In this document: piece by piece, positions 1-21,334 of the stretch | How the letters are laid out: each line of letters begins with the position of its first letter | Position numbering within the stretch: position 1 is the first letter of the stretch | Assembly (NCBI GenBank): GCA_965655095.1 | Contig: OZ296648.1 | Location: 147,126,001-147,190,000, forward strand | DNA length: 64,000 nucleotides | Direction: 5' to 3' | Source: Haplodiscus bocki | Taxonomy: Eukaryota | Notes under the pieces: generated by a model | Databases searched by the model: none | Seen by the model: only the letters and a program-made list of their open reading frames with translations | Told to the model about the DNA's origin: nothing | Position numbers and translations under genes: made by a program

Positions 1-3000
1 CGCCTGAGCTTCCGAAGTTGTGTCCCTTGAAGCATTAGTTAAAAATTCAATCAGGTAACCACTCAAACTTTGTAAAGCATTGTTGGACTTGTTATTACGG
101 GTTCTTCTCAAACAACAATGGGTTCTTCTGAAACATCACAAGCGTCATAGACTTCATGTTTAATTGGTCAGGCTCTATTGCCCCCAGGGATGACTCAAGA
201 GTGATCGACTACATGTCTATTCCGACTTTTCTTATTGGAAAGGTTTCATGAAGTTTTTTTCCAAACGTTTCGTTAGGTCTGTTGGCTTTTCGGGTAGAAA
301 ATTTGGCGCGGCGTTTGCTCTACCGGGGAATGTGTGCGTGAATTACGCTGTATGTATTAACTTTATCTAAAGAACTCCACTATGATTGGTAAAGTGAGTT
401 TGATTGGAAAAAAATTGTGAGTTTTTGTTATCAACTAGGAAAGGTACCACCTTTTCAACTCCACTAACAAACTGAGAGAACAATTTCAATGCAAAACAAA
501 GTGCGAGAAACTTTTTACAATCTAAAGCTATTTCCAACTGAGTTGCAGTAGATAACTCTCATTCGTTGGGGACAAGTGCATAGGCTCCTTTTCTGCCTTT
601 TTTTGTCCTAAGTAGTCTTGAATTGAAATGCAAACTGCTTACTATACGTACTTGCGTCACCCAAAATATTGGAAAGTTATTTGAGTTTGGCTACACAAAA
701 TTTAGTTTCTTTTGCTGTGAGCAAATGATTTTGTGTTGTCAAAACTCTGTGAATGCTCATCTTCTAGAAAAAAATCTACATCTATTCTAGGTAGATTATA
801 CCATGACATCGACTTTTGTGCTAAGTTGGGCAGCAAAGAAATACAAAGATCTTTTAATTAACCCACTAGTCTCTTCACGTGTTTCATAGTAAATGGGAGT
901 TTGATTGAGAACAAAAATGTTTCAATGTTTACAACCTCTGGTGTCAATCCTTCCAGTATTATCAAGTTGCCGAGAAAAAAATTCGATGTCATTCTAAGTT
1001 GAAATTTGTGGGATGTCAACTTTAATGCTGTTTTCCTCATCAACCAATCAAAGATTTGACTAAGCGTGGGGACCGCTTGTTCAAATGTTTCCACTCCACA
1101 TTGGATCTGGTCCATGAATCTTGTACATTTGATTGCTGGTGGACAGGAGTGTAGATAGGATCTGACAAAAGATCTAAATCCTGTGATCGTTTTGTTTAAT
1201 TCTTGCGCCTTTGTCGTGTAGGCGTAAACCCGTGCAACAAACTTGAACAAAAGCAATTGCAGTCATAATGGGTCTCTTTTTTGTGCACATTGACATACCT
1301 GAGAACAATGCAACTTGGTAAACAGATTCTATGCCGCAAAATGATGAACGGAGTCGGTCATATTTGAAATTGGAACGTTGTTGTTACTGTAATCAATTCG
1401 AAGGAGGAGATTAACTCGTCTAAGGCCGACTAAATTTCACAATAATCCTGATTGCCTTCGTTGAGCGAAAATAGGACAATTGATTTTGATTTCCGGTAGA
1501 AGTAACACAATTCCGTAAATTTTCATTAGAGCAAGTCCATCTGAGATTTCATCTCTCAAGTGAATTGGGCTTGGCGGACTTTGAAAGTAAAATGATATTT
1601 AATGCGCTGGACTTACTTTGATTTTCATTTCTGTGTTACAACCAACATCAAATCTATGTTTTCCAAAACTATCAGTAATTTCGACTAATGTTTCTTGCAT
1701 GGGTTCAATCGGTTCTGCTCTTAGTACAGATTTTGACGAAAAAAATTGATGTGCAATTGTCTCAGTCTTCCAAATTTTTTGAGGTTCTAGAATATCCCTT
1801 GTTTGTAATTGTGTGATGTTGTCATAATATCTTCCCTGTCGTGTTTCCAGGATTCGGACACGTTTCCGGTGTTGGAAACCAGATTATATTGTAGTCCGGT
1901 GGTGCATGCTTTGCTTCACTTTTGCCAAGTTTTTTGCATGTGTTCAATTATCGATTTTTGCGGTTACAAAAAATTCCACTTTTTGTTTTACCAATGGATA
2001 ATAAGTTTGGTTCTATTTCAATCAATTTGTCTTCTTGTTGTGGTGAAACATTTTTGAAAACAGCAATTTGTTGACTTTTGTAAGGGTTACACCATGTTCA
2101 CTCGAAATAAAGGCAACAAATGACATTTTGTTGTTTTTTCCAACTTTGTTACTTTCAGTGGAGAACTCTAGAACTTCCTTGTTCTGAAATTGTTGATCTG
2201 TAGTCACAACTCCTGTATGACCTTTTAATTTTTTTGTGAACAACAATTTTTGCGTAAAGAATTTCTTTTCATAGAGGTTTGCACGCATTTTTGGCAGTAG
2301 ACAAACAGAATATTTGGTTTCTACAGTTTACTTGCTTCTTTGGCGGGGAGTTTTCGATCATTTAATTGGTAAGTCTTGTTCGGGAATTTAGGTGTGTTTC
2401 CTTCAGGGCATGTCTAAACATCAAAAATATTGAAAAGGGGGTTGTTTTAGACAACATTGCCAATCGAAGGCAAAAGTGAAAAACGTCGTCGAAATGATGC
2501 CCCTTATTGTTGAATTTGTCATCGAGTTGTGTCAAAACATTCAATGTACGTCTTGATGCTACTTTCCTGATTGAAAGTGATGGTTGTTGAATTTCTGAAA
2601 TCGGGTGCGATCATTGTTACTTCCACTCTTCGAAAATGTCTGATGGCATTGCATTTGCACAGGCTTTAGTATCAACGAGTGCTTTTCTGCGAACATCATT
2701 CTCAAGTTCCAATGGAATGTCACTCTAAGCTGCTGTAGTTTTTCAACTGCATTGGAAAAGGTTTCCCCTAGAATGTTTTGTGTCACTGACTCTATGAAAC
2801 TAGGGTAAAAAACTGGAACTTGAATTTCTTCTAGAGAACATAATTTATTTTTAAAAGGTTTGTACATAACTAGAGTACGTATTTTTGAATGACTGACTGA
2901 TTTGTGTAGCTTTAAGTGCTTTTTGGTCCACCTCTTGAACTATCTCTTCTTTTCGCCTGGCAACCTTGCGTTGTGTGCTTAGGATAACCACAGGTGTAAC

Positions 3001-3380
3001 AAAGTTTTTGGGATAATTCATTAATTTCAATGTGTCTGTCATAAGTTCCAGAATTTATTGTGGTTTCGTCTTTTGATGCATTTTGTGCAAGATTATCATT
3101 ACTAAATTTGATGGAGTTGTTATAGCAAGTGCTATAGTTTTTTGAAATTTCTCCCCGACAGTTTTTATTAAAGATATATCTTCCACATTTTTCTCCTCTC
3201 TAGTTTTGTCCTCTTTTGTGCAGTTACCTCTATGATTACCTCTCCCTCACTGGGTTTAATAATTATGCTGGTAGAGCTGCTCGGAATTGTTTGGAACTTG
3301 TTGGGAATTAGGTTTTTCGTTTGAAGCACTCAAGTTTGTTTTTAATGAGGGCTGATTTTGTGACTTCTTCATTGTCACGG
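1..3380 (-). mobile_element. Degenerate Ty3/Gypsy LTR retrotransposon gag-pol remnant; runs off the left window edge
   Basis: ORF 858-1256 (YTTKAQELNKTITGFRSFVRSYL...FMDQI...FFLGNLI) reads as a decayed RT core, with YMDD changed to FMDQ. KLHCSQ (LDCSQAYH-like) at ~1290-1320; RNase H-like GDAS motif at ~650; zinc-knuckle-like CYTCGYPKHTTQGC at ~2960-3000. Many stops and frameshifts. Possible PBS/LTR start at ~3440-3470. Confidence 0.8.
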
Positions 3381-4271
3381 TCGGAAAATTTTCTGTATTA
3401 TCACTACACTTCAATAGTAAAACAGTGAGTCAATCAGACGCGGAAGGTTGAAACACCCTTTTGTATTAAGATAGTGTATGGTGTTCCGACAACCGAATTG
3501 AGCTCAATTTGGTGTTCTGGGTAGGAAAACCTCTCTTGGCTCTTATGTTGATACCTGGGTCAAAGTGCCAAGATAAGGATCTTCGATACTGTGCGACCTT
3601 TTGGCACTACGAGGCCTTCGAAAGTACTCGATCACACATGAAAATACTAGGATACCTTTATCAAAAAAGTTCACCCCGAGATAAGATTCATCGCAACACA
3701 TGGTTCATTCCAATGTATTAGGAAACCCCAAGGTATAGAGTTTTCAGCACTGTGAGACTTTCGGCACTACCCGAAGATACCAGAATATTTCAAGATTGCC
3801 CAATTGATGGGGTTCCCCCCACGACAGAGTTCAATCCACAGTAAGGTTCGCGTTTTTGGTACTGTGAGGGTTGGAGTTCAGTCCAATGTATTGAGATATG
3901 CGTTTCGTGTACCAAAGATGTTACGTTTGGGTTGAATTGGGCCACGTTCTGTCCAGTAGTAAAGTGTGAGCAGAAATTGGGGGAAACGCGGGGTCCTCTC
4001 GGCTTGATTCGAACCTCTGACAAAGGAGACAGTACTTTTTTTGACAGGCCTGGACGATAAATTCATACGCGGGGGGCTTCTATTTAATAAAGGATTTGTG
4101 AACGTAGAGCAGTGGCGTACATTTTGTTACGCCTGCGAAGTTCTCATTACAACTGCGAATCCTTCATCAAGGGAGCTGACCATTTAAGGCTTGATTCTAT
4201 GTTAAGATTTTGAAAAAAGTCAGTTGGAGAGTATGTTTGTGAACAAACACCTGGTTTTTGAAGAATCTAAA

Positions 4272-7120
4272 CTTTAAATAGAGGAGTATGGATTCCATCT
4301 GACTCAACTGTTCACTTAGAAGAAAAGTAAAGCAGTCGTTTTTGTCTGACCGTTGTTTCCTAAAAACGGTTCTTCGTACCAAATCCACTATTGGTAGAAG
4401 TTAAATTTTCTGTTCCCTCCAATACTTTTCGATATCGATGCGTCTCCACTGTCTACAATTGGTAACTTTTTCACTCCTCTTCTGCTGAAAAAAAACTTTT
4501 GGTTTACAGAGTCGTTACAGCAATATGTCTGGTTACACAAACACAACAATTCAGTTCATCAAAAGTCATCCTTGAACAGTCCGGGTTTTTTTCATCATGT
4601 TTTTTTTGTGTTTAGCACAGCACCAGTGGGTGAAAAAATTGCTGCTAGCGTCTGCAGTGAACGAATCGCTACATTATGTACTACTCAGCAATTCCCACTC
4701 TTATGTTTCCTCACTTTTATGCAATCATACAATTCTTCTTCGGCTAGTGCTAAATACAGGGCATCAATATCCATCCCCCATATTTGTCAGTATCACAAAA
4801 GATTGCAAGATAAGCTGTGATACGGCTCTAACAATCTCAATTTAGCATACTGCAGGATTAAAAAGACCATCTTGATGGGTTCCTTATGTTCGATTACAGA
4901 TCCACCCAACCGAACCTCGTGAAGTTCGTCGTTGCTATGTCACAATCACTTGAACTGTTTTGTTGATGGCATCATGTGTCTTTTCATAATTCATACACCG
5001 TGTGACTGAATCACGACTGAGGTCCATGATTTTATAACCGTGCGAGATGCTAGCAAGCAACATCATAGTTTTTGCAACAAGACTACAGTTTGGATTCTCG
5101 TCCTCTTGACGACGATCATTAACAGTGGATTGCACAAACATGTTAAAACAGTTGATCGGATTGTATTCAACGAAGCGATAATCTTTTGTGCGTATAAATC
5201 CCAGCCCCAAAAAAACAGTGGTGTAATGATTGTACAATTGGTTAGTTTAAAGCTAGAATTTAAGGTCCGTCGTAGTTGGGACGCTAATTCTTCCTTCTCA
5301 GCGTACTCTTGCCTTAATGATCCAAAAATTTGTCTACAAACGTTTGTAATTTTGAAAAATATTGGGAAGTTTGCAAAGTTTTCTTTTTGATGTTCTGGAA
5401 GTTTCATATCACACTGTACGTCACCAAACATTTCAACTGATTTTGTTTTGTCCAATTAGTGGTCCTGACGCAATGAAGCCTGTATGGGATTGATACTCTC
5501 AAGTGTTCCTTCAGTGATGCATCAGTTTTTTTGGAGTTTCCACCGTTCACCTTCCCACATTTAGACATAGTGTAACCTTTTTCTTCGATATTTTGTTTCA
5601 ACATTTAATCCAGTTCCCTCTTTTTTGTTCCACGTTGAAAATTACTTTTTCATTTGGAGCAGGTTGTGTCTATTGACAACAACAGTAAAATTAGAAAAGA
5701 CACATTGTTTCAAACACTGTGTTGCAAAATCCACAAAAACCATATGTATTGAAGCAATCAAACTTTTTCTGAATTCCTGTTTTGTAAAAATTCTCAATTC
5801 TGCATTCCGGTCTCACTCGCTGAAAATGCAACATGACCATATCTTCGAAGCTTCCAGATTTGTCCTGACAGGGCTTGAATTTTTGTAAATCTGCATAGCT
5901 CCCATACTATGTGCAGAGTCCTGTAGGCGTAGGTTGACGCATTGAGTAAGAGTAAAGTTGGCCAACATCTGTTCCAATAGTCGATTTGCAAACACTTGTG
6001 GACTTGTGGATGTGAGTGTAGTCAATAACAGCTTTATTTGTAAACACTGATGATGGTTATTCAATCAATTGTTCTCAAAACTTTGAAAACAAATCTTCAT
6101 CGCTTCCTGTGAAGGGATAAGTATTTGCACTGGTGAAAATGTGCAGACAAAAGTTGGCCAGGTTAAGTAAAGTACATCCACGCTTGAGCATATCAATGCG
6201 TTTGTTGCTAAAAAAGTCGATCAGTTTTGCATAGCCTGTAATTTTGGTACAAGATGTTGTTAGTTTACCAGCGCAAAAAGTCTTTGAACGTCTGCATTTT
6301 TTGCTGCTCCCACACCTCGTGCAAATAGGAATAGTTGTCTGCTCCTGTAGGTGATATTTCAGAAAATCTCAGCTTGACCGGGGCAACTTCTGTCGTCAAA
6401 CGAATACTGATCAGCTTTTCGACGTCTAGTTACTCCTTTTCAAGAAAGCTGCAATTCCGTAGTTTGTTGTGAATGGCTGTGTATGAAGGTAGTTCTTTGT
6501 TGTTCAGTTTATCTGGGTGGTTCAACCGCTACTATGAAAAAAAATCTTGACAACTTTGAAGACTTGTAGGCTTTCAGGATTGAATCAAGATTGGTAGCAT
6601 TTCTGAAAAACTGGAAATTGTCAAGAAATTGAACTTTACCATTTTTGAACGAGACAAATTGCTTGGCTTTTTTAACAGCATTGGGTTCAGATAACGTTCG
6701 TTTACGAGAAGAGTTGGTAAGCAACTCTTGATTAGGTTGATATCATACCTCGCACTGTTGAACCCAAAGACTGGTAAGTTTTGCAATATCACTCAAAATA
6801 TATTGATCCTCCGATGAAATGACAGTGTGTCTGTGAAAATCAATCCAATGGAACAATCGCTTTTAGTGAGGAGAAACGTTGACGGAAAAAGATACTCAAT
6901 TGAGTCAAATCCACCTGATAAATAGGCAGATTGTCTGAAAAAAAATTTTAATCATTCATTTTTTCGTTTCAACTGTCAATCAAAAAGAATTCCATCAAAA
7001 GAAAAACGTTCGTTTCCAAAATTGAATTTCTAGTCCACATTTTGAACGTTTACGATCACAGACTCCTTGAATTATCGATGTAAACTGATGCCTTACTCCA
7101 ACAAAAGGATCGTATGGAAC
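4272..7120 (-). pseudogene. Polinton/Maverick (adintovirus-type) protein-primed DNA polymerase B, frameshifted (left-arm copy)
   Basis: Fragments across frames: LPVFGFNSARYDINLIKS (ExoII), KKAKQFVSFK..VQFLD..LDSILKAYK, DVQCDMKLPEHQKENFANFPIFFK, VAKTMMLLASISHGY (decayed KLxxNSxYG motif B), MDIDALYLAL (decayed DTDS motif C). Confidence 0.9.
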
Positions 7121-7286
7121 CCAGTAATTTTTTTGAATACTATACTACTGTTTTTATTGTATAAAACTACACAAATCAAGAAGGATCCTAACTCAAAAAA
7201 AAGGTCTCCAAAAACTGATAAATTTTCGAAACGTGATGTCCTGTAATTTTTTAAAACAATTTCTGGCGTGATTAGAAATTCTAGAT

Positions 7287-7544
7287 TCAAAATCTAATTT
7301 TTGTTTTGTTTTTCGGATTCTCACTGAATGAATGGTCGCCTTCCCAATATTCAAAACAACTTGTAGCACAGAACAGATTTACAGAAACAGTTTTATTGTT
7401 TTTCGCATAACAGTTGGCAAACTCTTGTAACATAACAGCAACCACTTGATTGTTTAATGGGTTTTCTGAATAAATTACTGGCAAAGAAACAAAACAGTCA
7501 CAGAAATTATTACTGATTCCCAAAAAAGGGATCACCTTCCACAT
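7287..7544 (-). pseudogene. Small unknown ORF upstream of pPolB; disrupted mirror copy at ~14750-15010 (+)
   Basis: 85-aa ATG ORF in the left arm. The mirror copy is frameshifted in T-runs. No recognisable motif. Confidence 0.3.
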
Positions 7545-7718
7545 TTGGAATTTGTTGTGTCTTTGACCAAAAAAGGTATGATTTTCCTTTTACGGTAGGT
7601 CTGAATTGGTTAAAATCTTATAAAAGCAGCAACTTGCTACTCTGAAAAATCATTCTTTGAAAATCGTTCTGAAAAACAGCAACTCGCCTTTTTCAGCTAC
7701 TAACGTACCCAACCACTG

Positions 7719-8309
7719 GTGAATTTTTTCACCAATACCTGCGGACAATCACAATTCAGTGCTCAACCCTTGTCGAAATTGAGCAATTTTTCCTTTCTTT
7801 TGCATGAAGCGATCTACAAAAATAATAAAACCCAAGCATTTCCTTATGATCCTACAGAGGTTGCACTTGAATCTATTTTGCGCCCGGAAGTTGATTTTAT
7901 ATCAAATTGTGGTCATATGTTCAAGATGACGATTTCTTCAGATGACATGATGCACTTCATTGATAAGGAAAATATCGTGACCTATGCAGAGTTTGGTTGT
8001 GGTTTCAGTTTTTACCACAAAACTGCCGTTAATGTTGAACAGATCAACCGAGAATGGAAAAACATTGCCAGATCCTTTGAAAAGCCCATGTATTTTCCAA
8101 AAAGCGATGAACATAACTGTTCTATTGATACCTCTAAAGAGCATATATCTAAAATTTTTCTGAGCCCGCCCATTTTTGGGGACATGGATTTGGCAGCTCT
8201 TATGACACTCAACCACACTACGGATGGGGATTCTATGTCCAATCAAAATCTTCAAACAATGACTAACAAGCATATAACAGAATTATATTCGGTGTTTTAT
8301 TCATTGTGA
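7719..8309 (+). CDS. Unknown ~196-aa ORF divergent from pPolB, probably a Polinton accessory gene
   Basis: Open 196-codon frame with non-repetitive, protein-like composition. It stays open in the mirror copy despite substitutions. GTG start; first in-frame ATG at ~7917. Confidence 0.5.
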   Translation: MNFFTNTCGQSQFSAQPLSKLSNFSFLLHEAIYKNNKTQAFPYDPTEVALESILRPEVDFISNCGHMFKMTISSDDMMHFIDKENIVTYAEFGCGFSFYHKTAVNVEQINREWKNIARSFEKPMYFPKSDEHNCSIDTSKEHISKIFLSPPIFGDMDLAALMTLNHTTDGDSMSNQNLQTMTNKHITELYSVFYSL

Positions 8310-8620
8310 CCAATGGACATTAAAATTGAAAGGATTGCGCGTCAGCTTTGCATTCTTTCAAAAAAAATTACCAGGCGGACCACTGAAGGAAGTTGTTGGT
8401 ACGGTTGAAAAGGTGAGTGGTCTTTGGAAGCCCGGAGCAATGGATGGAGTTCCACCGTCTGTGAGGAGCTTTAGTTGTATTAGAGTGTAGTTGTTTGTTT
8501 TTTCTGTTTGATTTCTATTGTGTGCTGGTGCATCGTTTTTGTTGTTTTCTGAGAAGTAACTTTTTTGTTCTTTTGTTTGATGATTTTGAGTCAGAAGTTT
8601 TACTTCATCAACAACTACTA

Positions 8621-9011
8621 CGTAAGGTAACACTTCCATAAGCAGTCGATGCCGCAGCTTGTCTTAGTTTTTTTGCAGAAGTTCACCCCACAGTGATACA
8701 TAGGTGCATACCCTCCTCAGCCTCCACTCTCTAAACTTACTTCAATACTTGTACAGATCGGCTCTCTGCCTCATCATATTACGTGACATCATCATTAAAG
8801 AGTCACAAAGTCCTTTTTATTTTTTCCTAGACATTGCGAAGCCCATATTCTTTAATAGAACAATGTGGAATATCATTCCCTATCTAATCATATTAATGAG
8901 CACACTCGGGTCAGATTGGTTGTCCGAAAACACCTAGTGCCGTTGATCACAAGTGGGAAAGACAAAGACTATCTTAACACAAACACTAGACTAACTAAAC
9001 CCCTCCTTACA
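8621..9011. mobile_element. Probable solo LTR (~390 bp), left arm
   Basis: Inverted termini cgtaagg...ccttaca (canonical TG..CA with one decayed base). No TSD visible. Confidence 0.55.
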
Positions 9012-9460
9012 TTGAATCATTGCCGAAATGTGTCCTAATTTGATGAACGCAATAAGACCTGGCAACCTGCCAACCAAATAGACTTAAAATCTGACACCTT
9101 TCAAACCAATTCAATTCAATGACTTAGGTCTCTCGAAAAAGTTGATACAAAATATGACACGTTGTAGAACTTTTGTTTGAAAACTGACACGTTGTAAAGT
9201 TTTCATTTCAAAGAAAAATTTACAAAAAAATTGCCTTTCAAATTTCTGGTTGTTAATGAAAATATTTGTTTCGCAATCATGTTTTCTAAAAAAGCAAGAA
9301 AACTAAAAAAATTGTTGCTTCTAATGAGTAAATTGTGTTAAAATGTGATTTTTCAGATCCAATTCTTGGTTTGAAACGTGACTTTTTTCAGAAAATTGAA
9401 CAATAAATATGATTTTTTTTAAAAAAATTCTTTTCAAAAATAGACAGGACGGAAAGTTTT

Positions 9461-9790
9461 CAATTCAAAAGCAAACGATCTGTTCTTTTTCCAACTATAA
9501 ATCTGACACTTTGTAACATCTTTATTTCAAAATCTGACTAGCTGTCAAAAATATTTCTCCCAAATCTGATTTTCAACTTGTTTTCCAGGTTCTGAATCAG
9601 TGATCATGTCTCTTGTCAACGTTAATACCAAACTGTTGTAAAGAGGAGAATTACAAGATATTGTCTGTTACAGAATTAGTCGCTAGACGCACGACAAAAA
9701 GCAGACACACGACAATTCTCTTCTCAATTTGAGAGGACTAAATTTGTGAAAATTCACAATTTTCACAGGGACCTTGGATAGAACTCTATG
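9461..9790 (+). repeat. ~320-bp dispersed repeat, 4 copies (9461-9790 +, 10684-10994 +, 11084-11415 -, 12508-12836 -)
   Basis: Begins caattcaaaagcaaacgatctgttctttttccaactataaatctgac and contains aaatctgac sub-repeats that also occur at 9085-9200. The two inner copies face each other at the palindrome centre. Confidence 0.85.
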
Positions 9791-9979
9791 TAGCATAAAA
9801 TCTAGCAGACTGACTCGCTCTAACCTACATTGGAACATAGGAACCTCCGTCCTAGGCAACAGATCTTGGAGTTTTTTGGGTGACTTAATACTCGAGTCTG
9901 GTTGGCTGCCGACAACATTTCGCAAAAACCGACAGCAATGTTTTGAGCGAGGCCGAAGTTCGACAGTGTGTTGAAATTT

Positions 9980-10420
9980 TGTATAGCTCAGTATTGTAGT
10001 AGAGCAACGTGTACGTTAGTAATGTTTTTACGTTGCTAAGGGCGTCGCATTCTATTAGGCTCAGATATACCTGAGCTAGGTTATAAGATTGGCAAAAGTT
10101 CAGCAGTGTAATTAACCAGAGTATACGTCAGCAATGTTTTAAGATTGGGAGTAGCTCCGCAATGTAATAAACCTGGGAAAAGCTAAGCAATATAATAAGG
10201 CAAAATATACCTCAGAAAACCTAAACGATTGGGAAGAGCTCAGGAACGTAATAGTACACGGTATTCGTCAGCAGTGATCCAAAGTTGGGAATTGCTCAGC
10301 AACGTAATAAAATAGGGTATACCTCTGCATTGTAAAAATGTTGGCTATAGCTCAACAATGTCAAATGGATGGCAGGGTATACCACATCAAAGGATTAAGA
10401 TAGCGTACACTCCCGACCAA
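9980..10420. repeat. Degenerate ~28-bp minisatellite (consensus approx. gggtatagctcagcaatgtaataagatt)
   Basis: Successive units such as gggagtagctccgcaatgtaataaacct, gggaaaagctaagcaatataataaggc, gggaattgctcagcaacgtaataaaata. Confidence 0.75.
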
Positions 10421-11739
10421 TTTAATAAGGCAGGGTTTATTTCGGCACTGTAATTACGTATGATATGGATTTGGGTGCCCAAGTCGTTGGCTTGAGACAA
10501 GGTTAGGTATCCGGCAAAAACCGAACGCGTAAGACTGTCAAAGTCTTACAAGGTACAAATGGACCCAAGTTTAAAAAAGCACCAAAAAAGTAACAGTTGT
10601 AGCCTTTACAGAGTATATTGAGTCCGAACGTGGTTTTTCAGATGTAACTTTTTATTCGAAATGTTTTTTTTTGAAAAATACGCCAATTCAAAAGCAAACG
10701 ATCTGTTCTTTTTCCAACTATAAATCTGACATTTTGTAACATCTTTAATTTCGAAATCTGACTCGATGTCAAAAATTTTTATCCCAAGTCTGATTTTCAT
10801 CTCTTTTTCCAGGTTCTGAGTCAGTGATCATGTCTATTGTCAATGTTAATACCAAACTGCTGTAAAGAGGAGAAGTGAAAGAAGTTGTGTGTTTTGAATT
10901 TCGTCAGTAGATGTACGACAAAGAGAAAACACACGTCAAATGTCCACTCAATTTGAGAGGAACAACGTCAAAACATCACACAATTTTCACAGAAAAGGAT
11001 AGAGGTTTAACTGAGGTGCGTTTTTTTCAAAGATGGACAGTGGTGTATTTTGAGAAAAACTGTTGATCTGCAAGATGTTATTGTCCACAGAGTTCTGTTC
11101 AAGGCTTCTGTGAAAAATGTGTGATGTTTTGACGTTGTTCCTTTCAATTTGAGTGGACTTTTGACGTGTGGTTGCTCTTTGTCGTACATCTACTGACTAA
11201 GTTTAAAGCAGACAAATCTTTCCACTTCTCCTCTTTACAGCAGTTTGGTATTAACGTTGACAGTAGGCAAGATCACTGATTCAGAACCTGGAAAACAAGT
11301 TGAAAATCAGATTTGAGTTAAAAATTTTTGACATTGAGTCAGATTTTGAAATAAACATGTTACAAAATGTCAGATTTATAGTTGGAAAAATAACAGATCG
11401 TTTGCTTTTGAATTGGCGTTTTTTCGTCCCGGTTGGTTTTGAAAAAAGCTTTTGGATAAAAATCAGATTTTGAGTTGATATTTTTCAAAAATAGACATTT
11501 TGAACAAAAAGTTACATCTGACAAATCACGTTTGGACTCAATATACTCTGTAAAGGCTACAACTGTTACTTTTTTGGTGTTTTTTAAACTTGGCTCCATT
11601 TGTGCATCTTAAGACATTGACGGTCTTATGTTTTCGGTTTTTGCCGGAAACCTAACTTTATCTCAAGCCAACGACTTGGGCACCCAAATCCATACGATAC
11701 ATAATTACAGTGCTGAAGTAAATCCTGCCTTAGTAAATT

Positions 11740-12320
11740 GGTCGGGAGTGTACGCTATCCTAATCTTTTGATGAAGTATACCCTGCCATCCATTTGACAT
11801 TGTTGAGCTATAGCCAACATTTTTACAATGCAGAGGTATACCCTATTTTATTACGTTGCTGAGCAATTCCCAATCTTGGATCACTGCTGACGAATACCGT
11901 GTACTATTACGTTCCTGAGCTCTTCCCAATCGTTTAGGTTTTCTGAGGTATATTTTGCCTGATTATATTGCTTAGCTTTTCCCAGGTTTATTACATTGCG
12001 GAGCTACTCCCAATCTTAAAACATTGCTGACGTATACTCTGGTTAATTACACTGCTGAACTTTTGCCAATCTTTGGGTTTTCTGAGGTATATTTTGCCTG
12101 ATTATATTGCTTAGCTTTTCCCAGATTCATTACATTGCGGAACTACTCCCAATCTTAAAACATTGCTGACGTATATTCTGGTTTATTACACTGCCGAACT
12201 GTTGCTAATCTTAAAACATAGCTCAGGTATATGTGAGCCTAATAGAATGCGACGCCCTTAGCAACGTAAAAACATTACTAACGTACACCCTGCTCTACTA
12301 CAATACTGAGCTATACAAAA
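11740..12320. repeat. Mirror copy of the 28-bp minisatellite with an extra 139-bp (~5-unit) duplication
   Basis: ttctgaggtatattttgcctgattatattgc occurs at 11941 and at 12080. Confidence 0.8.
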
Positions 12321-13285
12321 TTTCAACACACTGTCGAACTTCGGCCTCGCTCAAAACATTGCTGTCGGTTTTTGCGAAATGTTGTCGGCAGCCAACCAGA
12401 CTCGAGTATTAAGTCACCCAAAAAACTCCAAGAGCTGTTGCCTAGGACGGAGGTTCCTATGTTCCAATGTAGGTTAGAGCGAGTAAGTCTGCTAAATTTT
12501 ACGCTCCATAGAGTTCTGTTCAAGGTCTCCGTGAAAATTGTGAACTGTCATAACTTTATTCCTCTCAAATTGAGAGTAGAATTGACGTGTGTCTGCTTTT
12601 TGTCGTGCGTCTAGCGACTAAATCTATAACAGACAATATCTTGAACTTCTCCTCTTTACAACAGTTTGGTATTAACGTTGACAAGAGACATGGTCACTGA
12701 TTCAGAACCTGGAAAACAAGTTGAAAATCAGATTTGGGAGAAAAATTTTTGAAATCGAGTCAGATTTTGAAATAAAGGTGTTACAAAGTGTCAGATTTTT
12801 AGTTGGAAAAAGAACAGATCGTTTGCTTTTGAATTGAAAACTTTCCCTTCTGTCTACGTTTGAAAAGAAATTTTTTTAAGAAAATCATATTTATTGTTCA
12901 TTTTTCTAAAAAAAGTCACATTTCGAACCAACAATTGTATCTGAAAAATCACATTTTTACACAATTTACTCAGTAGAAGCATCAATTTTTTTAGTTTTCG
13001 TGCTTTTTTAAAAAGCATGATTGTGAAACAAATAGTTTCAATAAAAACCAGAAATTTGAAAGGCAATTTTTTTGTAAATTTTTCTTTGAAATGAAAACTT
13101 TACAACGTGTCAGTTTTCAAACAAAAGTTCTACAACGTGTCAGATTTTATATCAACTTTTTCAAGAGACCTAAGTCATTGGATTGAATTGGTTTGAGAGG
13201 TGTCAGATTTTAAGTCTATTTGGTTGGCAGGTTGCCAGGTCTTATTGCGTTCATCAAATTAGGACACATTTCGGCAATGATTCAA

Positions 13286-13674
13286 TGTAAGGAGGGGTTT
13301 AGTTAGTCTAGTGTTTGTGTTAAGATAGTCTTTGTCTTTCCCACTTGTGATCAACGGCACTAGGTGTTTTCGGACAACCAATCTGATCCGAGTGTTCTCA
13401 TTAATATGATTAGATAAGGAATGATATTCCACATTGTTCTATTAAAGAATATGGGCTTCGAAATGTCTAGGAAAAATAAAAAGGACTTTGTGACTCTTTA
13501 ATGATGATGTCACGTAATATGATGAGGCACAGAGCCGATCTGTACAAGTATTGAAGTAGGTTTAGAGAGTGGAGGCTGAGGAGGGTATGCACCTATGTAT
13601 CACTGTAGGGTGAACTTCGGCAAAATACTAAGACAGGCTGCGGCATCGACTGCTTATGGAAGTCTTACCTTACG
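13286..13674. mobile_element. Probable solo LTR, right-arm mirror copy
   Basis: tgtaaggagggg...ccttacg; reverse complement of 8621-9011. Confidence 0.55.
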
Positions 13675-14008
13675 TAGTAGTTGTTGATGAAGTAAAACTT
13701 CTGACTTAAAATCATCAAACAAAAGGAACAAAAAAGTTACTTCTCAGAAAACAACATGAACGTTGCACCAATACACAAAAGAAATCAAACAAAAAGAAGC
13801 GAACAACTACACTCTAATACAACTAAAGCTCCTCACAGACGGTGGAACTCCATCCATTGCGCCGGGCTCCCAAAGACCACTCAACTTTTCAACCGTACCA
13901 ACAGCTTCATTCAGTGGTCCGCCTGGTATTTTTTTTTGAAAGAATGCAAAGTTGACGCGCAATCCTTTCAATTTTACTGTCCATTGGTCACAATGAATAG
14001 AACACCGA

Positions 14009-14578
14009 CTATAATTCTGTTTTATGCTTGTTAGTCATTGTTTGAAGATATTGATTGGACATAGAATCGCCATCCGTAGTGTGGTTGAGTGTCATAATAG
14101 CTGCCAAATGCATGTCCCCAAAAATGGGCAGGCTCAGAAAAATTTTAGATGTATGCTCTTTAGAGGTATCAATAGAACAGTTATGTTCAACGCTTTTTGG
14201 AAAATACATGGGCTTTTCAAAGGATCTGGCAATGTTTTTCCATTCTCGGTTGATCTGTTCAACTTTAACGGCAGTTGTGGGGTAAAAACTAAAACCACAA
14301 CCAAACTCTGCATAGGTCACGATATTCTCCTTATCAATGAAGTGCATCATGTCATCTGAAGAAATCGTCATCTTGAACATATGACCACAATTTGATATAA
14401 AATCAAGTTCCGGGCGCAAATTAGATTCAAGTGCAATCTCTGTAGGATCATAAGGAAACGCTTGGGTTTTATTATGTTTGTAGATCGCTTCATGCAAAAG
14501 AAAGGAAAAATTGCTCAATTTCGACAAGGGTTGAGCACTGAATTGTGATTGTCCGCAGGTATTGGTGAAAAAATTCAC
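14009..14578 (-). CDS. Mirror copy (189 aa) of the unknown ORF at 7719-8309
   Basis: Near-identical translation with scattered substitutions; an earlier stop removes 7 C-terminal residues. Confidence 0.5.
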   Translation of the reverse strand: MNFFTNTCGQSQFSAQPLSKLSNFSFLLHEAIYKHNKTQAFPYDPTEIALESNLRPELDFISNCGHMFKMTISSDDMMHFIDKENIVTYAEFGCGFSFYPTTAVKVEQINREWKNIARSFEKPMYFPKSVEHNCSIDTSKEHTSKIFLSLPIFGDMHLAAIMTLNHTTDGDSMSNQYLQTMTNKHKTEL

Positions 14579-15169
14579 CAGTGGTTGGGTACGTTAGTAG
14601 CTAAAAAAGGCGAGTTGCTGTTTTTCAGAACGATTTTCAAAAAATGATTTTTCAGAGTAGCAAGTTGCTGCTTTTATAAGATTTTAACCAATTCAGACCT
14701 ACCGTAAAAGGAAAATCATACATTTTTTGGACAAAGACACCACAAATTCCAAATGTGGAAGGTGATCCTTTTTTTGGGAATCAGTAATAATTTTTGTGAC
14801 TGTTTTGTTTTTTTTTGAGTCATTTCTTCAGAAAACCCGTTAAACAATCAAGTGGTTGCTGTTATGGTACAAGAGTTTGCCAACTATTATGCGAAAATCC
14901 ATAAAACTGTTTCTGTAATTCTGTTCTGTGCTACAAGTTGTTTTGAATATTGGGAGGGCGACCATTCATTCAGTGAGAATCCGAAAAACAAAACAAAAAA
15001 TATCTTTTGAATGTAAAATTTCTAATCACGCCAGAAATTGTTTTAAAAATTTACAAGGCATCACGTTTCGAAAACTTATCAGTTTTTGGAGACAATTTTT
15101 TGAGTTAGGAACCTTCTTGATTTGTGTAGTTTTATACAATACAAAACAGTAGTATAGTATTCAAAAAAT

Positions 15170-18010
15170 TTACTGGGTTCAAGAAGTTCCTTTTGTTGGA
15201 AGAAGGCAGCAGTTTACTTCGATAATTCAAGGAGTCTGTGATCGTAAACGTTCAAAATGTGGACTAAAAATTCTATTTTGGAAAGGAACGTTTTTCTTTT
15301 GATGGAAGTCTTTTTGATTGACAATTGGAACGAAAAATCAAAAGATAATTTTTTTTTCAGACAATCTGCCTCTTTATCAGGTGGATTCGATCCAATTGAG
15401 TGTTTTTTCTCCGTCAACGTGTCTCCTCACTAAGAGAAATTGTTCTATTGGATTGATTTTCACAGACACACTGTCATTTCATCGGAGGATCATTTTATTT
15501 GGAGTGATATTGCGAAACTTACCAATCTTGGGGTTCAACATTGCGAGGTATGATATAAACCTAATCAAGAGTTGCCTACTACATATTCTCGTAAACGAAC
15601 GTTATTTGAAGCGAATGTTTTAGAAAAAGCCAAGCAATTTGTCTCGTTCAAAAATGGTAAAGTTCAATTTCTTGACTTTTTCAATTTTTTCGTAGATGTT
15701 ACCAGTCTTGATTCAATCCTGAAAGCCTACAAGTCTTCAAAGTTGACAAGATTTTTTTTCATAGTAGCGGTTGAACCACCCAGATAAACTGAACAGCAAA
15801 GAACTACCTTCATACACAGCCATTCACAACAAACTACGGAATTGCAGCTTTCTTGAAAGGAGTAACTAGACGTCGAAAAGCTGATCAGTATTCGTTTGAC
15901 GAGAGAAGTTGCCCGGTCAAGCTGAGATTTTCTGAAATATCACCTACCGGAGCAGACAACTATTCCTATTTGCACGAGGTGTGGGAGCAGCAAAAAATGC
16001 AGACGTTCAAAGACTTTTTGCGCTGGTAAACTAACAACATCTTGTACCAAAATTACAGGCTATGCAAAACTGATCGACTTTTTTAGCAACAAACGCATTG
16101 ATATGCTCAAGCGTGGATGTACTTTACTTAACCTGGCCAACTTTTGTCTGCACATTTTCACCAGTGCAAATACTTATCCCTTCACAGGAAGCGATGAAGA
16201 TTTGTTTTCAAAGTTTTGAGAACAATTGATTGAATAACCATCATCAGTGTTTACAAATAAAGCTGTTATTGACTACACTCACATCCACAAGTCCACAAGT
16301 GTTTGCAAATCGACTATTGGAACAGATGTTGGCCAACTTTACTCTTACTCAATGCGTCAACCTACGCCTACAGGACTCTGCACATAGTATGGGAGCTATG
16401 CAGATTTACAAAAATTCAAGCCCTGTCAGGACAAATCTGGAAGCTTCGAAGATATGGTCATGTTGCATTTTCAGCGAGTGAGACCGGAATGCAGAATTGA
16501 GAATTTTTACAAAACAGGAATTCAGAAAAAGTTTGATTGCTTCAATACATATGGTTTTTGTGGATTTTGCAACACAGTGTTTGAAACAATGTGTCTTTTC
16601 TAATTTTACTGTTGTTGTCAATAGACACAACCTGCTCCAAATGAAAAAGTAATTTTCAACGTGGAACAAAAAAGAGGGAACTGGATTAAATGTTGAAACA
16701 AAATATCGAAGAAAAAGGTTACACTATGTCTAAATGTGGGAAGGTGAACGGTGGAAACTCCAAAAAAACTGATGCATCACTGAAGGAACACTTGAGAGTA
16801 TCAATCCCATACAGGCTTCATTGCGTCAGGACCACTAATTGGACAAAACAAAATCAGTTGAAATGTTTGGTGACGTACAGTGTGATATGAAACTTCCAGA
16901 ACATCAAAAAGAAAACTTTGCAAACTTCCCAATATTTTTCAAAATTACAAACGTTTGTAGACAAATTTTTGGATCATTAAGGCAAGAGTACGCTGAGAAG
17001 GAAGAATTAGCGTCCCAACTACGACGGACCTTAAATTCTAGCTTTAAACTAACCAATTGTACAATCATTACACCACTGTTTTTTTGGGGCTGGGATTTAT
17101 ACGCACAAAAGATTATCGCTTCGTTGAATACAATCCGATCAACTGTTTTAACATGTTTGTGCAATCCACTGTTAATGATCGTCGTCAAGAGGACGAGAAT
17201 CCAAACTGTAGTCTTGTTGCAAAAACTATGATGTTGCTTGCTAGCATCTCGCACGGTTATGAAATTGTGGATTGCAGTCGTGATTCAATTACACGATGTA
17301 TGAGTTATGAAAAAACACATGAAGCCATCAACAAAAAAGTTCAAGAGTTTCTGACAAATCATCGACAAACTCCGACAGATACATTTGTCCAAAACTGTAA
17401 TATAACAAAAGGAACCAATCAATGTAATCTTTTTTATCCTGCAGTACGCTAAATTGAGACTGTTAGAGCCCTCTCACAGCTTTCTCTTACAAGCTTTTAT
17501 GATACTGACTAGTATGAGGAGAACAAATGGAAACTGATTCACTCTTTTTTGCACTAGCCCAAGAAAACTTGAAAAATTGTAAAAAAGTGAAATAAAGCAA
17601 GAGTGGAATTTGTTGGGTAGTCAAAACAGTAGCCATTCGTTCGCTGCAGACGCTTGCAGCAAGTTTTTCACCCAATCATACAGTGCTAAGCACAAAAAAC
17701 ATGATAAAAGTGAACCTGGATTGTTCGAGAAGGAATTTTGAAGCACTGAACTGTTGTGTTTGTGTAGCAAGATTTACAGCTGTTACAACTCTCTCAGCAA
17801 CAAGTTTAAATTCAACAGCAACGGAATGAACAAGCAAACAATTGAAGAGTGTTGAAAAGTGTTGGAGGAAACAGTTTGTGCAATTTTTAATCGGTAGATT
17901 TCGGACAAGGAACCATTGTGTAGCAACCAACTAGCGTACAAAGAAAGGGCTTTTTTATTTTCATCCTAAACGGATAAATGAGTCCTATGGAATCAATACT
18001 CCTCCGTTGG
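15170..18010 (+). pseudogene. Polinton/Maverick (adintovirus-type) protein-primed DNA polymerase B, frameshifted (right-arm copy)
   Basis: LPILGFNIARYDINLIKS at ~15520; motif A region at ~16310-16370; Vsr-like insert (GFCGFCNTVFE...IEEKGYT) at ~16550-16730; motif B at ~17220-17260; METDSLFFALA motif C at ~17527; C-terminal KGLFYFHPKR..PL tail ending at ~18009. Confidence 0.9.
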
Positions 18011-18649
18011 AGGATTAAATTCCCTGAATACCTGGTGTTTGTCCAAATAGATAGTCCCTTATTTACTGTTTTCCAACTACGACTCCCTGAAAAAACTATC
18101 CGCACGCATATTAAATTATCCGCTGGGTTTCCCAAAAGAAGTTTTCTCTCGACATTCCCAAGTTTTAATCCTGCTGACAAGGCCTCGACTTTCCCCCCAC
18201 CTCTGCTCACACATTACTACTAGACAGAACGTGGCCCCATTCAACCCAAACGTAATATATTTGATAAACGAAACCCATATCTTAATACACTGGACTGAAC
18301 TCCAGCCTGGAGTGAACTTTTTTTGCATTGAACCCTAGTCTCACAGTGCCCATAAGCCTTAGCCTCACAGTACCAAAAACGCGAACCTTACTTTGGAGTG
18401 AACCTTATCTTGGGGTGATCGCCATCAATTGAGTTATCTTGAAACATTCTGGTATCTTCGGGTGGTGCCGAAAGTCTCACAGAGCTGAAAACTCTATACC
18501 TTGGGGTTTCCTAATACATTTGATTAAACCCTCTTTTGGGGTGAACCTTATTTTGTAGAGGCATCTTCCTACCTGGAGGTATCTTCCGGTTGTGCTGAAA
18601 TTTTCACTGTGCTTAGGGTCTCACAGTGCCATAAACTTCTATCCTAATG

Positions 18650-19560
18650 CAATGGCCGACGTATTATCATTGGAACGGAGAAGGGTCTTCCAACCCAAAG
18701 TGCCAGTTTGAGCTCCTTTCAGCTCTCGGACCGCTATATCGTATTTTGAAACAAATTGGCCTAACACCCGCCCCGTCTGATGGACTCACTCTCTTACTCC
18801 TCTTCAGTTTAATAAACCCATTTCGCGACAGGTCATCTGACGGGAGAAACTCTCTCAAGATCAATTCTTGTCTTGTGTTTGTACATATTTTTTGATTTGT
18901 TGCGTTTGCTGGTTTTTCCAGAAGTTTAAGTCTATTAACACTTGGCATGTTTCTCTTGAAAAGTCTTTTGACATGTCTGTCTTTTCCATTTTCTCGAAGT
19001 TCCTCCTATTCTCGTTTTCCTTGTGTTCTCTGTCAACTCTCCGTTACTCATTCGCTACTTCGTCATTGAGTGGTGCTACAGGCAAATCCACTGGTTGTGT
19101 TAATGTTTCCCTTTCAAGGCTATGTTTTGCATTTTAGCAACAAATTCTTCTGGTGATGCTGCCTTGTTTTTGAATCTTAAGTTCTCCAAATTTTTGCGAT
19201 GAATTTCCATCCAATTGGGGTTACAAAAGTGATATTTGTCAGCTGTCAATGTCAGCGCCAGATCATATCTTGTCTCGTTGTCTAGTGTGTGCAAAAAATG
19301 GATTGCTGCATCTTTTATTTTCAATTTTTGTAAATCTACTCCTTCAACTCCATTTTTGTTTGCTACATCATTCAATCCACGAAGAAATGATTGAAATTCG
19401 GTCCAATTTTCCACTCGAGATGCTCCAAAATCTTAAATCGATTGGGCGATGCTGCTGCTGCCATCGTTGTGAATTTCTCCTGTTTTCAATGTTTAATTTG
19501 GGTTTTTGAAGACAGAAGCGTTCGAGTCAGAGAATACGGGAGGTCTCCGCAAAAAAAATC
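18650..19560 (-). pseudogene. gag: LTR-retrotransposon gag remnant, truncated by the palindrome end
   Basis: ORF 19100-19414 (LKIKDAAIHFLHTLD..RYDLAL..LENLRF..SPEEFV) is Gypsy capsid-like. PICFKIRYSG at ~18730-18760 is a decayed zinc knuckle. Confidence 0.6.
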
Positions 19561-20199
19561 AGTAAAGGGAAGATCGCAAAATGAAAAATGAAAACTGAGG
19601 ACTCTACTTGACTGGAGAGTGAAAGAGAAGCACAGCTACTGCCTTAGTATCAAAATACTGCTTGCTCTCCAAAGTTTAATCGTGGTTTCAATTTGAAAAC
19701 TGCTGAATCAAACAATGAGATCAGTTTTTCGAAGTTAATTTGAGCGCTTACATCAATTTACTGCTTGCTAAGATCCTCTGAGAGTTGAAAATGGATTTTC
19801 AAACTATTAGACGTTTGTTCATCGTCACTGGTTGAAGGTGCTTCGATAGGCAAAGTCACGTCACTGGGAAGCCTCCAAAGTTCTGCTGTTCCAGTTACTG
19901 AGAATAGCTGCTTTTTGTTTCGGAAGCTTTTAGGTTTTAGGAGCGTTCGTCTGGCGGTTTGTGGTGTGGCAATTTTTTTTTCAGATTAAATTCTTGGAGT
20001 TCTTTCTAAGATGAATTTTTTGTTTTAGCTGTCAGTATAATATGGAATGTTGGAAATGGATTGTTATAAAGGTCAAGAGACCAATGATCGGACGCTTCTC
20101 TCATCGCTTCGCTAAGTATCGATAAGTATATACAAGTACAGACGCCTATGCTGAATTAAATACAAAGGCTGATGGTGCAACTGAAAACAATCAAATTTA

Positions 20200-21334
20200 C
20201 CGTTAAGCGGCACAGTTCACTACCATGAAAACTCTGATATATAACGTTACAAGATAAATATAGCATGACAATTATGTCACTTAGCTATAATGAGTTGACA
20301 GCTTTTAGAGAACATTTTTTGCCAGACGCTTTGATTTGAGCTGTTTCTATCTCCAGGAGATGTGTTGGCCGACCAGCTGAAACCCCTGACTCCGTCGCAA
20401 TTGCCTTACAGCGGGATAATTTGGATAATACGATGGCGCGTCATGTTATCGTCGAAACTTTGAGAAGGTATTGGGTTCTAATGCAAAAATTGTGAATAGG
20501 GCTCATTTCGAGATTGGCGTCGTAAAAATTCTTGAGAGACGCGAAATGTTGCTGGCCAAAAAAAGATCATGCTCGAGGCTCAAGAAGTTAGAGGAAGAAA
20601 CTGCCCGGGTCGAAATAATGGCCGAAGTTTTTCGGGTATAAGGGCGTTAACGGCGGTCAAAATTAGCCACAGAAGCCGTTATTAACCGGAAAAATAGCGG
20701 CATTAACGGCGTTGAACCGGAAAAATAGTGGCGTTAACGGCGTTGAACCGGAACGCTAACGGCGTTAACGGCGTTCCTTGTCGGTATAAAGGCGTTAACG
20801 GCGTTTTGCCTGTCGGTATGAAGGCGTTAACGGCGTTTTGCTAAAAAGTTAACGGCGTTAGCGGCGTTTACGCCACTATACCGGAAAAATAGCGGCGTTT
20901 TCCCAAAAAAATTACCCGGGTGGCAACATGCCAGTTGAAGACAGTGATTTAGATTCGCCTTACAAATTCTTAAGAAGCGGGCCGAAACGAGATTTCAGGA
21001 GTCCACATATCACAATTGCAATCTTCTAAAGCGAGCGCCAAACATAATGGAACGGTTCTTTAGTTCTGCCGGCTTAGTTCTGTCAGTTCTGTGCCAAAAA
21101 TTGATGCCTGAACAGGTGACACAGCAACAGTTTCTTAAGGTCAAACGAAATTTTGGAACGTAGAACTCGTATCACAAGTTTTGAATTATTAAATATGTAG
21201 CTTGAAATTTATGAATTTATGACATTTCCAGTTTTTCCCGAGGTACCAATAATTGCAATAGTTTGATAAAGTTTATCAAAATCAATTATTTATTGGCAAT
21301 TTTTTTTCTTGCAATCGCTATTTCGCAAGCTCTG
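20200..21334 (+). mobile_element. hAT DNA transposon remnant (C-terminal half of the transposase plus 3' end)
   Basis: DSVAIALQRDNL and GSNAKIVNRAHFEIGVVKIL (~20390-20535); hAT dimerisation-like NIMERFFSSAGLVLS..KLMPEQV..FLKV (~21040-21150). Probable 3' terminus ...ttcgcaagctctg, i.e. a CAG-starting TIR on the opposite strand. Confidence 0.75.
20604..20920. mobile_element. GC-rich MITE-like insertion interrupting the hAT transposase
   Basis: Termini cccgggt...acccggg. The interior consists of ggcgttaac and accggaaaaatagcggc repeats. hAT coding similarity lies on both sides. Confidence 0.6.

What the first reader, a model, noticed from the sequence alone, without database searches (positions are those of the whole stretch)
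3610..18635. 15-kb chromosomal palindrome built from a Polinton-like pPolB module, head-to-head around a ~90-bp spacer
Seen: two ~7.4-kb inverted arms separated only by ~10995-11083. Each arm carries pPolB pointing outward, an inward-pointing ~190-aa ORF, a solo LTR and a minisatellite. No integrase, ATPase or capsid gene is recognisable. Known: Polintons normally have TIRs around a unique gene set, not mirror-duplicated genes, and long palindromes with short spacers are unstable. Inference: the shared frameshifts and shared solo LTR mean duplication happened after decay, so this is not a replicative dimer of an active virus. Read-through transcription would fold into kilobases of dsRNA, making this a candidate hairpin-RNA/endo-siRNA locus against Polinton-type elements.
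Basis: partly seen in the sequence, partly recalled or inferred. Interest (0 to 1): 0.75.

Follow-up and report, generated by a model that had tools for sequence, protein, structure and literature searches.

The report
Mirror-image dead Polinton, still self-converting
This is a 15.4-kb palindrome of two mirrored, broken polymerase halves of a virus-like Polinton transposon whose arms match from 61% to 100% in sharp blocks, likely because DNA repair copied one half of a single dead insertion over the other and has kept patching arm from arm; a gene-silencing role is untested.

Summary
The palindrome is real and larger than reported: arms 3416-10994 and 11106-18798, 91% identical overall, in blocks of 61, 88, 74, 100 (1,312 bp), 94, 98 and 90%. 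Short-read contigs hold both arm versions and show the identical block deeper than arm-specific contigs, so a fold-back artefact is unlikely. Each arm holds a broken pPolB matching only residues ~600-1445 of intact 1,446-aa relatives; no other Polinton gene was found. New here: homology starts abruptly at AGT termini (22 of 25 bases alike, 7 of 25 beyond), with a candidate 6-bp target duplication (5 of 6; chance 2-6%), apparently inside one LTR-retroelement gag. So it is likely one Polinton insertion with the same end twice, like maize Mu killer or Galileo extended-TIR copies. Best reading: repair replaced the unique half with a mirror copy, then repeated arm-to-arm conversion. Because conversion spreads lesions, shared frameshifts do not date the duplication; an integrated snap-back genome remains possible. 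The solo LTR was not confirmed; the 190-aa ORF is unassigned and shows no selection between arms. Hairpin silencing could not be tested. A new variant of a known kind.

The parts
3414..18800 (.). whole palindromic Polinton-derived element (15.4 kb); exact ends uncertain by 2-3 bases
3408..3413 (+). candidate target-site duplication, left copy (5 of 6 alike to 18801-18806)
   Evidence: chance 2-6% depending on how many offsets are allowed
18801..18806 (+). candidate target-site duplication, right copy
3416..4278 (+). left terminal and subterminal region, starts AGT; first 25 bases 22/25 alike to the right end, then 61%, 88% and ~67% blocks
18013..18798 (-). right terminal and subterminal region, starts AGT on the minus strand
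4279..6786 (-). left pPolB remnant (exonuclease to C-terminus, with Vsr-like insert), 19 breaks: 14 frameshifts, 5 stops
15510..18012 (+). right pPolB remnant, 18 breaks: 14 frameshifts, 4 stops
5034..6345 (.). 1,312-bp block identical between arms (left copy); most recent conversion, inferred
15949..17260 (.). 1,312-bp identical block (right copy)
7704..8309 (+). unassigned open frame, 201 codons, in a high-copy repeat; left copy
14009..14593 (-). unassigned open frame, 194 codons; right copy
9289..9809 (+). dispersed ~520-bp repeat M1
9814..10381 (.). 98% block with 56/139-bp minisatellite; right copy (11791-12483) has one extra 139-bp unit
10568..10995 (+). repeat M2 (lacks 60 bp present in M3)
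10995..11105 (.). central spacer, 111 bp, partly the end of M3
11067..11588 (-). repeat M3
12488..13012 (-). repeat M4 (mirror of M1)
1..3407 (-). left flank: decayed LTR-retroelement, gag end with CCHC knuckle then RT-like sequence
   Evidence: 8 of 9 hits nucleocapsid/Gag, E 0.19-9.3; RVT_1 E 0.014; weak
18807..20251 (-). right flank: likely 5' LTR, leader and first part of the same gag, pointing into the palindrome
   Evidence: by eye and recalled resemblance; no database support

Best explanation
The locus is a palindrome of two broken pPolB halves that begin with matching AGT termini and differ in blocks from 61% to 100%; it is likely one old Polinton insertion whose unique half (integrase, ATPase, protease, capsids) was likely replaced in the chromosome by a mirror copy of the pPolB half through break repair anchored in the terminal repeat, and which has likely been patched since by repeated arm-to-arm gene conversion. 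Steps: (1, inferred) a Polinton integrates into a retroelement gag and decays, collecting host repeats; (2, inferred) a break in or near the middle is repaired by copying the pPolB-side half in inverted orientation and rejoining at the opposite terminal repeat, which keeps both flanks and deletes the unique genes, possibly in more than one step; (3, pattern shown, cause inferred) conversion tracts of different ages homogenise 0.3-3.5-kb blocks, the latest 1,312 bp; (4, inferred) the 90% centre, a 60-bp deletion and an unequal minisatellite blunt hairpin extrusion and let it persist. It most likely does nothing for the host.
For: Sharp homology edge at AGT on both sides, 22 of 25 inside against 7 of 25 outside; vertebrate Mavericks end in AGT or AG repeats with 6-bp duplications (PMC8097293, section 7 and passages). 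Candidate 6-bp duplication 5 of 6, and the open frames of the two flanks are in phase across it. Closest intact relatives with flanks (L002, L003) carry protease, rve integrase and A32 ATPase hits and none of these is in the window: best frameshift-aware scores 18-34 bits against controls of 16.5-29.9 and ~850 for pPolB. Seven identity blocks; K2P from 0.43-0.72 near the ends and 0.27 in the pPolB tail to 0.04-0.11 inside and 0 in one block. The identical block is in the reads: contigs with 0 differences over 5152-6169, depth 44-47 against 19-26 for arm-specific contigs in X1 and 14-16 against 5-10 in X4; contigs with 33, 17 and 17 differences match the left-versus-right counts of 33, 17 and 17. 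Both arms share repeats M1/M4 (K2P 0.09) and M2/M3 (0.11), while M copies differ from each other by 0.21-0.25, so the inner mirror postdates those insertions. At 16 of the 20 deepest listed sites between 7728 and 10457 both arms share a departure from most laid contigs (only the 40 best-supported of ~1,430 rows were shown). Some frameshifts are shared even at 74-77% identity: 2 survive the strictest penalty, 3 the middle one. No third-position excess in that zone (68/47/61 and 68/40/66), so divergence is mostly that of dead DNA. The same mechanism is proposed for Galileo (TIR1-F1-F1-TIR2; PMC3573991 passages).
Against: The target duplication is weak (chance 2-6%) and neither end carries a clean (AGT)2 or (AG)3 motif. 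The right flank's identity as gag rests on recall. Conversion erases history, so this locus alone cannot separate a chromosomal mirror from one made before integration. The terminal 25 bp are better conserved (88%) than the next 210 bp (61%), and second codon positions differ less than others in the pPolB tail (25 against 49 and 47 on 181 codons, stratified p 0.0002-0.0008; weaker with one arm's frame only): both would fit ends drawn from two different active lineages. In L002/L003 pPolB points away from its near end, the opposite of this element; the layout of this lineage's intact element is unknown. The runs are 2 samples of 1 study and may be the assembly's own source; no listed contig spans the centre or both arms.
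Confidence: 0.55

Rival explanations
1. Snap-back or inverted-recombinant genome: during extrachromosomal strand-displacement replication the polymerase switched template, giving a molecule with the pPolB end twice, which an integrase in trans inserted whole; conversion later copied lesions and nested repeats across.
For: Both ends are element termini at what looks like one site; length 15.4 kb is within the 13-25 kb Polinton range (10.1101/2023.08.22.554363 passages); conversion is evident, so shared lesions are not decisive. Palindromic defective genomes of phi29, adenovirus and AAV are recalled, not seen: one search listed 3 papers, none on this for phi29 or Polintons.
Against: Needs conversion to have copied two ~520-bp insertions and a minisatellite across arms; the inner 3.4 kb is made of host high-copy repeats; the bin holding the terminal 150 bp is shallow in the runs (74 against 26 for a single flank contig in X1), so no abundant family with this end shows at 80% likeness.
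Confidence: 0.2
2. Two-lineage chimera: the right half was copied from, or contributed by, a second Polinton copy of a related subfamily (ectopic template, or two insertions head to head), then homogenised from the inside by conversion.
For: Conserved terminal 25 bp followed by 61%; second-position deficit and dN/dS 0.57 in the pPolB tail; chimeric Galileo copies are described.
Against: No third-position excess and the deficit shrinks without double frame selection; shared frameshifts in the same zone; two independent insertions would not leave in-phase flanks with one duplication.
Confidence: 0.15
3. Functional hairpin locus (compatible with any origin above): read-through from the flanking retroelement's LTR makes kilobases of dsRNA and siRNAs against Polinton pPolB and the nested repeats, and selection keeps the arms alike.
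For: Same layout as Mu killer (PMC3440606 passages); a candidate LTR 1.4 kb away points into the palindrome (by eye); the most recent conversion covers pPolB; 3,032 of 7,519 21-mers pair perfectly.
Against: The nearest intact pPolBs match only at ~37-50% amino-acid identity per segment and 64% in DNA for L001; arms were left to drift to 61-77% over 1.6 kb; pairing the pPolB copies needs a transcript of over 11 kb; conversion needs no selection (Y palindromes, PMC6790999 passages).
Confidence: 0.12
4. Assembly artefact (fold-back read or mis-join).
For: No listed contig spans the centre or both arms; one identical 1.3-kb block could flip the inner 9.6 kb.
Against: 643 substitutions between arms, both versions present as contigs, left flank-to-arm junction on a 12-kb contig with 2 or fewer differences; right minisatellite has an extra unit.
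Confidence: 0.04

Closest known systems
Polinton/Maverick elements (pPolB group with zinc-finger N-terminus and Vsr-like insert, relatives in echinoderms, molluscs, amphioxus)
   Same: pPolB family, AGT-type termini, candidate 6-bp duplication, 15-kb size
   Different: no integrase, ATPase, protease or capsid; pPolB twice, truncated and broken; inverted repeat of 7.6 kb against 46-1,447 bp in intact vertebrate Mavericks
Mu killer of maize (PMC3440606, passages)
   Same: both termini from the same end of the element, two partial copies of the key enzyme gene in inverted duplication, flanking sequence that could read through
   Different: different superfamily; ~1.3-kb arms and young, with a live target and shown silencing; here 7.6-kb arms, old, patchy, enzyme genes point outward, no expression data
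Galileo extended-TIR (2RT) and chimeric copies (PMC3573991, passages)
   Same: non-autonomous copies in which internal sequence is recruited into the inverted repeat by repair and conversion
   Different: TIRs up to 1.26 kb without transposase; here the repeat holds nearly the whole element. That paper cites Jurka et al. 2007 for expansion of Polinton inverted repeats; I did not see that review
Y-chromosome palindromes (PMC6790999, passages)
   Same: arm-to-arm conversion keeps inverted arms alike
   Different: those arms are long, near-identical and often hold essential genes; here conversion is patchy and the cargo is dead
Polinton-driven rearrangements at C. elegans eri-6/7 (10.1101/2024.01.15.575659, passages)
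   Same: pPolB-end remnants and TIRs reshaping a locus
   Different: several insertions inverting a host gene; no mirrored pPolB described in the passages seen

Membership tests
Polinton/Maverick (autonomous) | protein-primed family B polymerase | tested here: met
   remnant only: residues ~600-1445 of 1,446-aa relatives, E to 1e-140; relatives hit DNA_pol_B_2 (2 of 8; 3 of 24); the window's own frames do not
Polinton/Maverick (autonomous) | N-terminal terminal-protein and vOTU part of pPolB | tested here: inconclusive
   27 bits at a colinear place (7649-7197), controls up to 26.4 and 31.6
Polinton/Maverick (autonomous) | retroviral-like integrase | tested here: not met
   profile from 16 relatives, best 33 bits anywhere in the window, controls to 24.6; 612 ORFs by tblastn
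Polinton/Maverick (autonomous) | ATPase, protease, major and minor capsid | tested here: not met
   very decayed pieces could be missed
Polinton/Maverick (autonomous) | terminal inverted repeats | tested here: met
   sharp edge at 3416/18798
Polinton/Maverick (autonomous) | end motif (AGT)2 or (AG)3 | tested here: inconclusive
   AGT on both ends; the 2-3 bases outside it each differ by one from the motif
Polinton/Maverick (autonomous) | 5-8-bp target-site duplication | tested here: inconclusive
   5 of 6, chance 2-6%
Mu killer-type hairpin silencer | same end twice with inverted partial enzyme gene | tested here: met
Mu killer-type hairpin silencer | transcript across the centre and small RNAs | not testable with these tools
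   no RNA data could be laid
Mu killer-type hairpin silencer | active target with near-identical sequence | tested here: inconclusive
   no genome held; 315 of 11,772 laid contigs at 99%+, which include the locus itself
extended-TIR derivative (Galileo 2RT type) | internal sequence recruited into the inverted repeat, non-autonomous | tested here: met
   pPolB and inner repeats lie in both arms; unique genes absent; the parent's TIR length is unknown
solo LTR | TG...CA ends with 4-6-bp duplication and a matching LTR family | tested here: not met
   candidates at about chance number, edge crossed by a relative; a weak likeness of 13275-13500 to the left terminus (score 52, shuffles to 41, elsewhere to 45) is not seen with the right terminus

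The most novel reading that the evidence does not exclude
The element was already a mirror molecule when it integrated: a snap-back defective Polinton genome, made by template switching during protein-primed replication and inserted by integrase in trans. It would be a chromosomal fossil of the Polinton replication intermediate, and the founding member of a class of palindromic defective Polintons that can double as hairpin silencers.
Probability: 0.2. Interest if true: 0.7.

Novelty: new variant of a known kind. Interest (0 to 1): 0.4.

Why it matters
Same-end-twice derivatives are known for cut-and-paste transposons (Mu killer, Galileo); I found no report of one for a Polinton (open-access full text only; a 2007 review cited for Polinton repeat expansion was not seen). 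The locus records several ages of conversion in one dead palindrome with a ~110-bp spacer, a structure usually taken as short-lived, so it offers a gene-free control for how often inverted arms convert without selection. If further copies show it was mobile as a mirror, it would be direct evidence on how Polintons replicate. As it stands it is one decayed locus.

Tried and rejected
No whole genome held, so no genome-wide search. No RNA holder listed; this says nothing on expression. Pfam on 52 fragments and 18 stop-masked frames did not name the polymerase; a word-index search with one fragment found nothing. IMG/VR scans found no relatives. 190-aa ORF: only one outside relative, 47%; no Pfam hit, ESM Atlas under 0.9 or blank, model pLDDT 28, no match to 612 ORFs of 80 loci, 18 differences spread 6/7/5 over codon positions, ratio 0.86; I first suspected it was the antisense of the pPolB N-terminus, which the profile did not support. 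Right-flank gag: no hit in Pfam, PDB sequences, pairwise comparison or fold search of a pLDDT-49 model; not excluded by this. PDB search with two left-flank frames gave 0 and 1 unrelated hit. Rfam 0 matches in 1-24000, no tRNA. Idea that each arm has its own TIR pair near 9000/13300: weak, one terminus only. CpG decay as cause of the codon-position pattern: removing CpG-type sites left 52/42/50 and 55/35/54. Earlier scan notes: 4 look-ups, nothing. One search timed out.
Full report
Observation. A self-comparison shows one long inverted match, 4209-10311 against 18076-11987 at 92%, with further matches inward and outward. A full arm alignment runs from 3416 to 10994 against 18798 to 11106: 643 mismatches in 7,423 columns. 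Segmentation gives seven blocks: 3416-3651 61%, 3652-3973 88%, 3974-5034 74%, 5035-6344 100%, 6345-9813 94%, 9814-10381 98%, 10382-10994 90%. The longest identical run is 1,312 bp; the next is 189. The spacer is 10995-11105.

Is it real? No genome is held. Four public runs hold the stretch, from two samples of one study, possibly the assembly's source. I laid all four on the left arm and spacer. A 12-kb contig covers the left flank into the arm with 1-2 differences. Contigs with 0 differences tile most of the identical block, at 44-47 against 19-26 for arm-specific contigs (X1), 14-16 against 5-10 (X4), 56-62 against 25-37 (X3) and 139-226 against 23-58 (X2). Three contigs carry 33, 17 and 17 differences where the assembled arms differ by 33, 17 and 17; two others over one of these stretches carry 11 and 16, probably mosaics. 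So both arm versions exist and both join the identical block. Only 32 of about 49,900 pieces were shown and none spans the centre, so continuity rests on the assembly. Summed depth, which is no copy number, puts pPolB at tens of times, the 7600-8800 segment and the minisatellite at hundreds to over a thousand times, the flank contig's depth: the parts are genome-wide repeats.

The polymerase. Pfam does not see it in the window. One fragment found 426 relatives; a profile of 30 of the 150 listed found 517 long proteins, among them entries from echinoderms, molluscs and amphioxus. The best, 1,446 aa, match both arms from residue ~600 to the end; the first 600 residues are not above controls. The family has a zinc-finger start and a Vsr-like insert, and 2 of 8 long members hit DNA_pol_B_2. 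Metagenome loci L002 and L003, among the closest of 80 kept from 518, carry protease, rve integrase and A32 ATPase hits beside the polymerase; capsid labels there are recalled. Profiles of nine of their genes find nothing convincing in the 64 kb. The left copy has 19 breaks, the right 18; 7 lie in the identical block, 2 shared frameshifts lie just inside it, and 2 to 4 shared frameshifts plus one stop lie in the 74-77% tail, depending on the penalty.

The ends. Homology begins at AGT at 3416 and 18798, 22 of 25 bases alike against 7 of 25 beyond. One diagonal of flank similarity can be read as 4 of 4, 5 of 6, 6 of 8 or 7 of 10; the 6-bp reading puts the ends at 3414 and 18800. Random pairs do as well in 2-6% of trials. 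The left flank is a decayed retroelement on the minus strand, with a CCHC knuckle and weak RT similarity. The right flank, also minus strand, has a candidate LTR at 20251-19900 and a frame that runs up to the right terminus; I read it as the front of the same gag from recalled resemblance only, and five kinds of search did not confirm that. The frames on both sides are in phase across the candidate duplication. Together this makes one insertion site likely, not proven.

Other parts. The ~190-aa ORF is open in both arms, has one outside relative at 47% and shows no sign of selection between arms. No solo LTR stood up. The centre is built of a ~520-bp dispersed repeat in four copies around the minisatellite; mirror partners differ by K2P 0.09-0.11, non-partners by 0.21-0.25. 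The central kilobase folds into one long imperfect hairpin as single-stranded DNA (no shuffles at that length).

Mechanism. Shown: the mirror, the blocks, the dead pPolB, the shared nested repeats, the sharp ends. Inferred: a single insertion; loss of the unique half by repair that copies the pPolB half in reverse and rejoins at the far terminal repeat; later conversions. Galileo copies gain inverted internal sequence in this way (PMC3573991, passages), breaks near short inverted repeats prime fold-back duplications resolved at repeats (PMC10622511, abstract), and conversion keeps Y palindrome arms alike (PMC6790999, passages). The oldest divergence is at the ends (K2P 0.43-0.72), then the pPolB tail (0.27), then the inside (0.04-0.11), which fits stepwise inward growth. 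Against it: conversion hides the starting state; the terminal 25 bp and a second-position deficit hint at two lineages, though there is no third-position excess and the deficit weakens under a fairer test; and in L002/L003 the polymerase points the other way relative to its near end.

Function. The layout matches Mu killer, where both termini come from one end and partial transposase copies meet in an inverted duplication (PMC3440606, passages; that paper disputes the long-hairpin model itself). Here nothing bears on expression, the outer arms have drifted, and intact relatives found are far too distant to be targets. I put a silencing role at about 0.12.

Standing. It works like an extended-TIR, same-end-twice transposon derivative. 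It is Polinton-derived but fails membership as an autonomous Polinton (integrase and virion genes not found; features from PMC8097293 section 7, 10.1101/2023.08.22.554363 and PMC11161782 passages). Searches listed no mirrored Polinton; I saw listings only for most of those papers and opened no supplements. Verdict: new variant of a known kind, interest 0.4; 0.7 if it proves to be an integrated snap-back genome (probability 0.2).

Noticed in passing
window 5028-5181: In X1 and X4 a left-arm contig runs through this stretch with 9 differences and a gap, while in X2 and X3 the contig stops at 5027 with at most 1 difference: a hint that the outer edge of the identical block differs between alleles, or that the assembly is off there.
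   Followed up: partly
window 47866-52088: Tandem duplication of 2.1 kb at 99.1% identity with a 61-bp satellite (9 and 22 copies), and a third 90-92% copy at 56063-58176; recent duplication or assembly effect.
   Followed up: no
window 34714-35293: Two small palindromes (158 bp at 94%, ~370 bp at 75%), MITE-like.
   Followed up: no
window 25838-26532 and 43733-44300: Further decayed LTR-retroelement gag-like and RT-like frames on the minus strand (weak PNMA hit; labels by eye).
   Followed up: no
window 20684-20899: 31-32-bp tandem repeat rich in a short palindromic word, just beyond the candidate LTR.
   Followed up: no
window 47322-47516: Weak tblastn match to the pPolB C-terminus of two loci (E 6e-4, 4e-3), not confirmed by the profile scan.
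   Followed up: yes
L002:335-5481 and L003:191-4915: The zinc-finger start of pPolB lies in separate frames from the rest, and is present twice in L002.
   Followed up: no
L012:806-860, 4993-5047, 18452-18506: A Polinton contig with three copies of its terminal repeat sequence, two on the pPolB side.
   Followed up: no
window 7597: Sharp edge of a very high-copy repeat (about 100 contigs per run leave the sequence here); the family that carries the 190-aa ORF is unidentified.
   Followed up: partly
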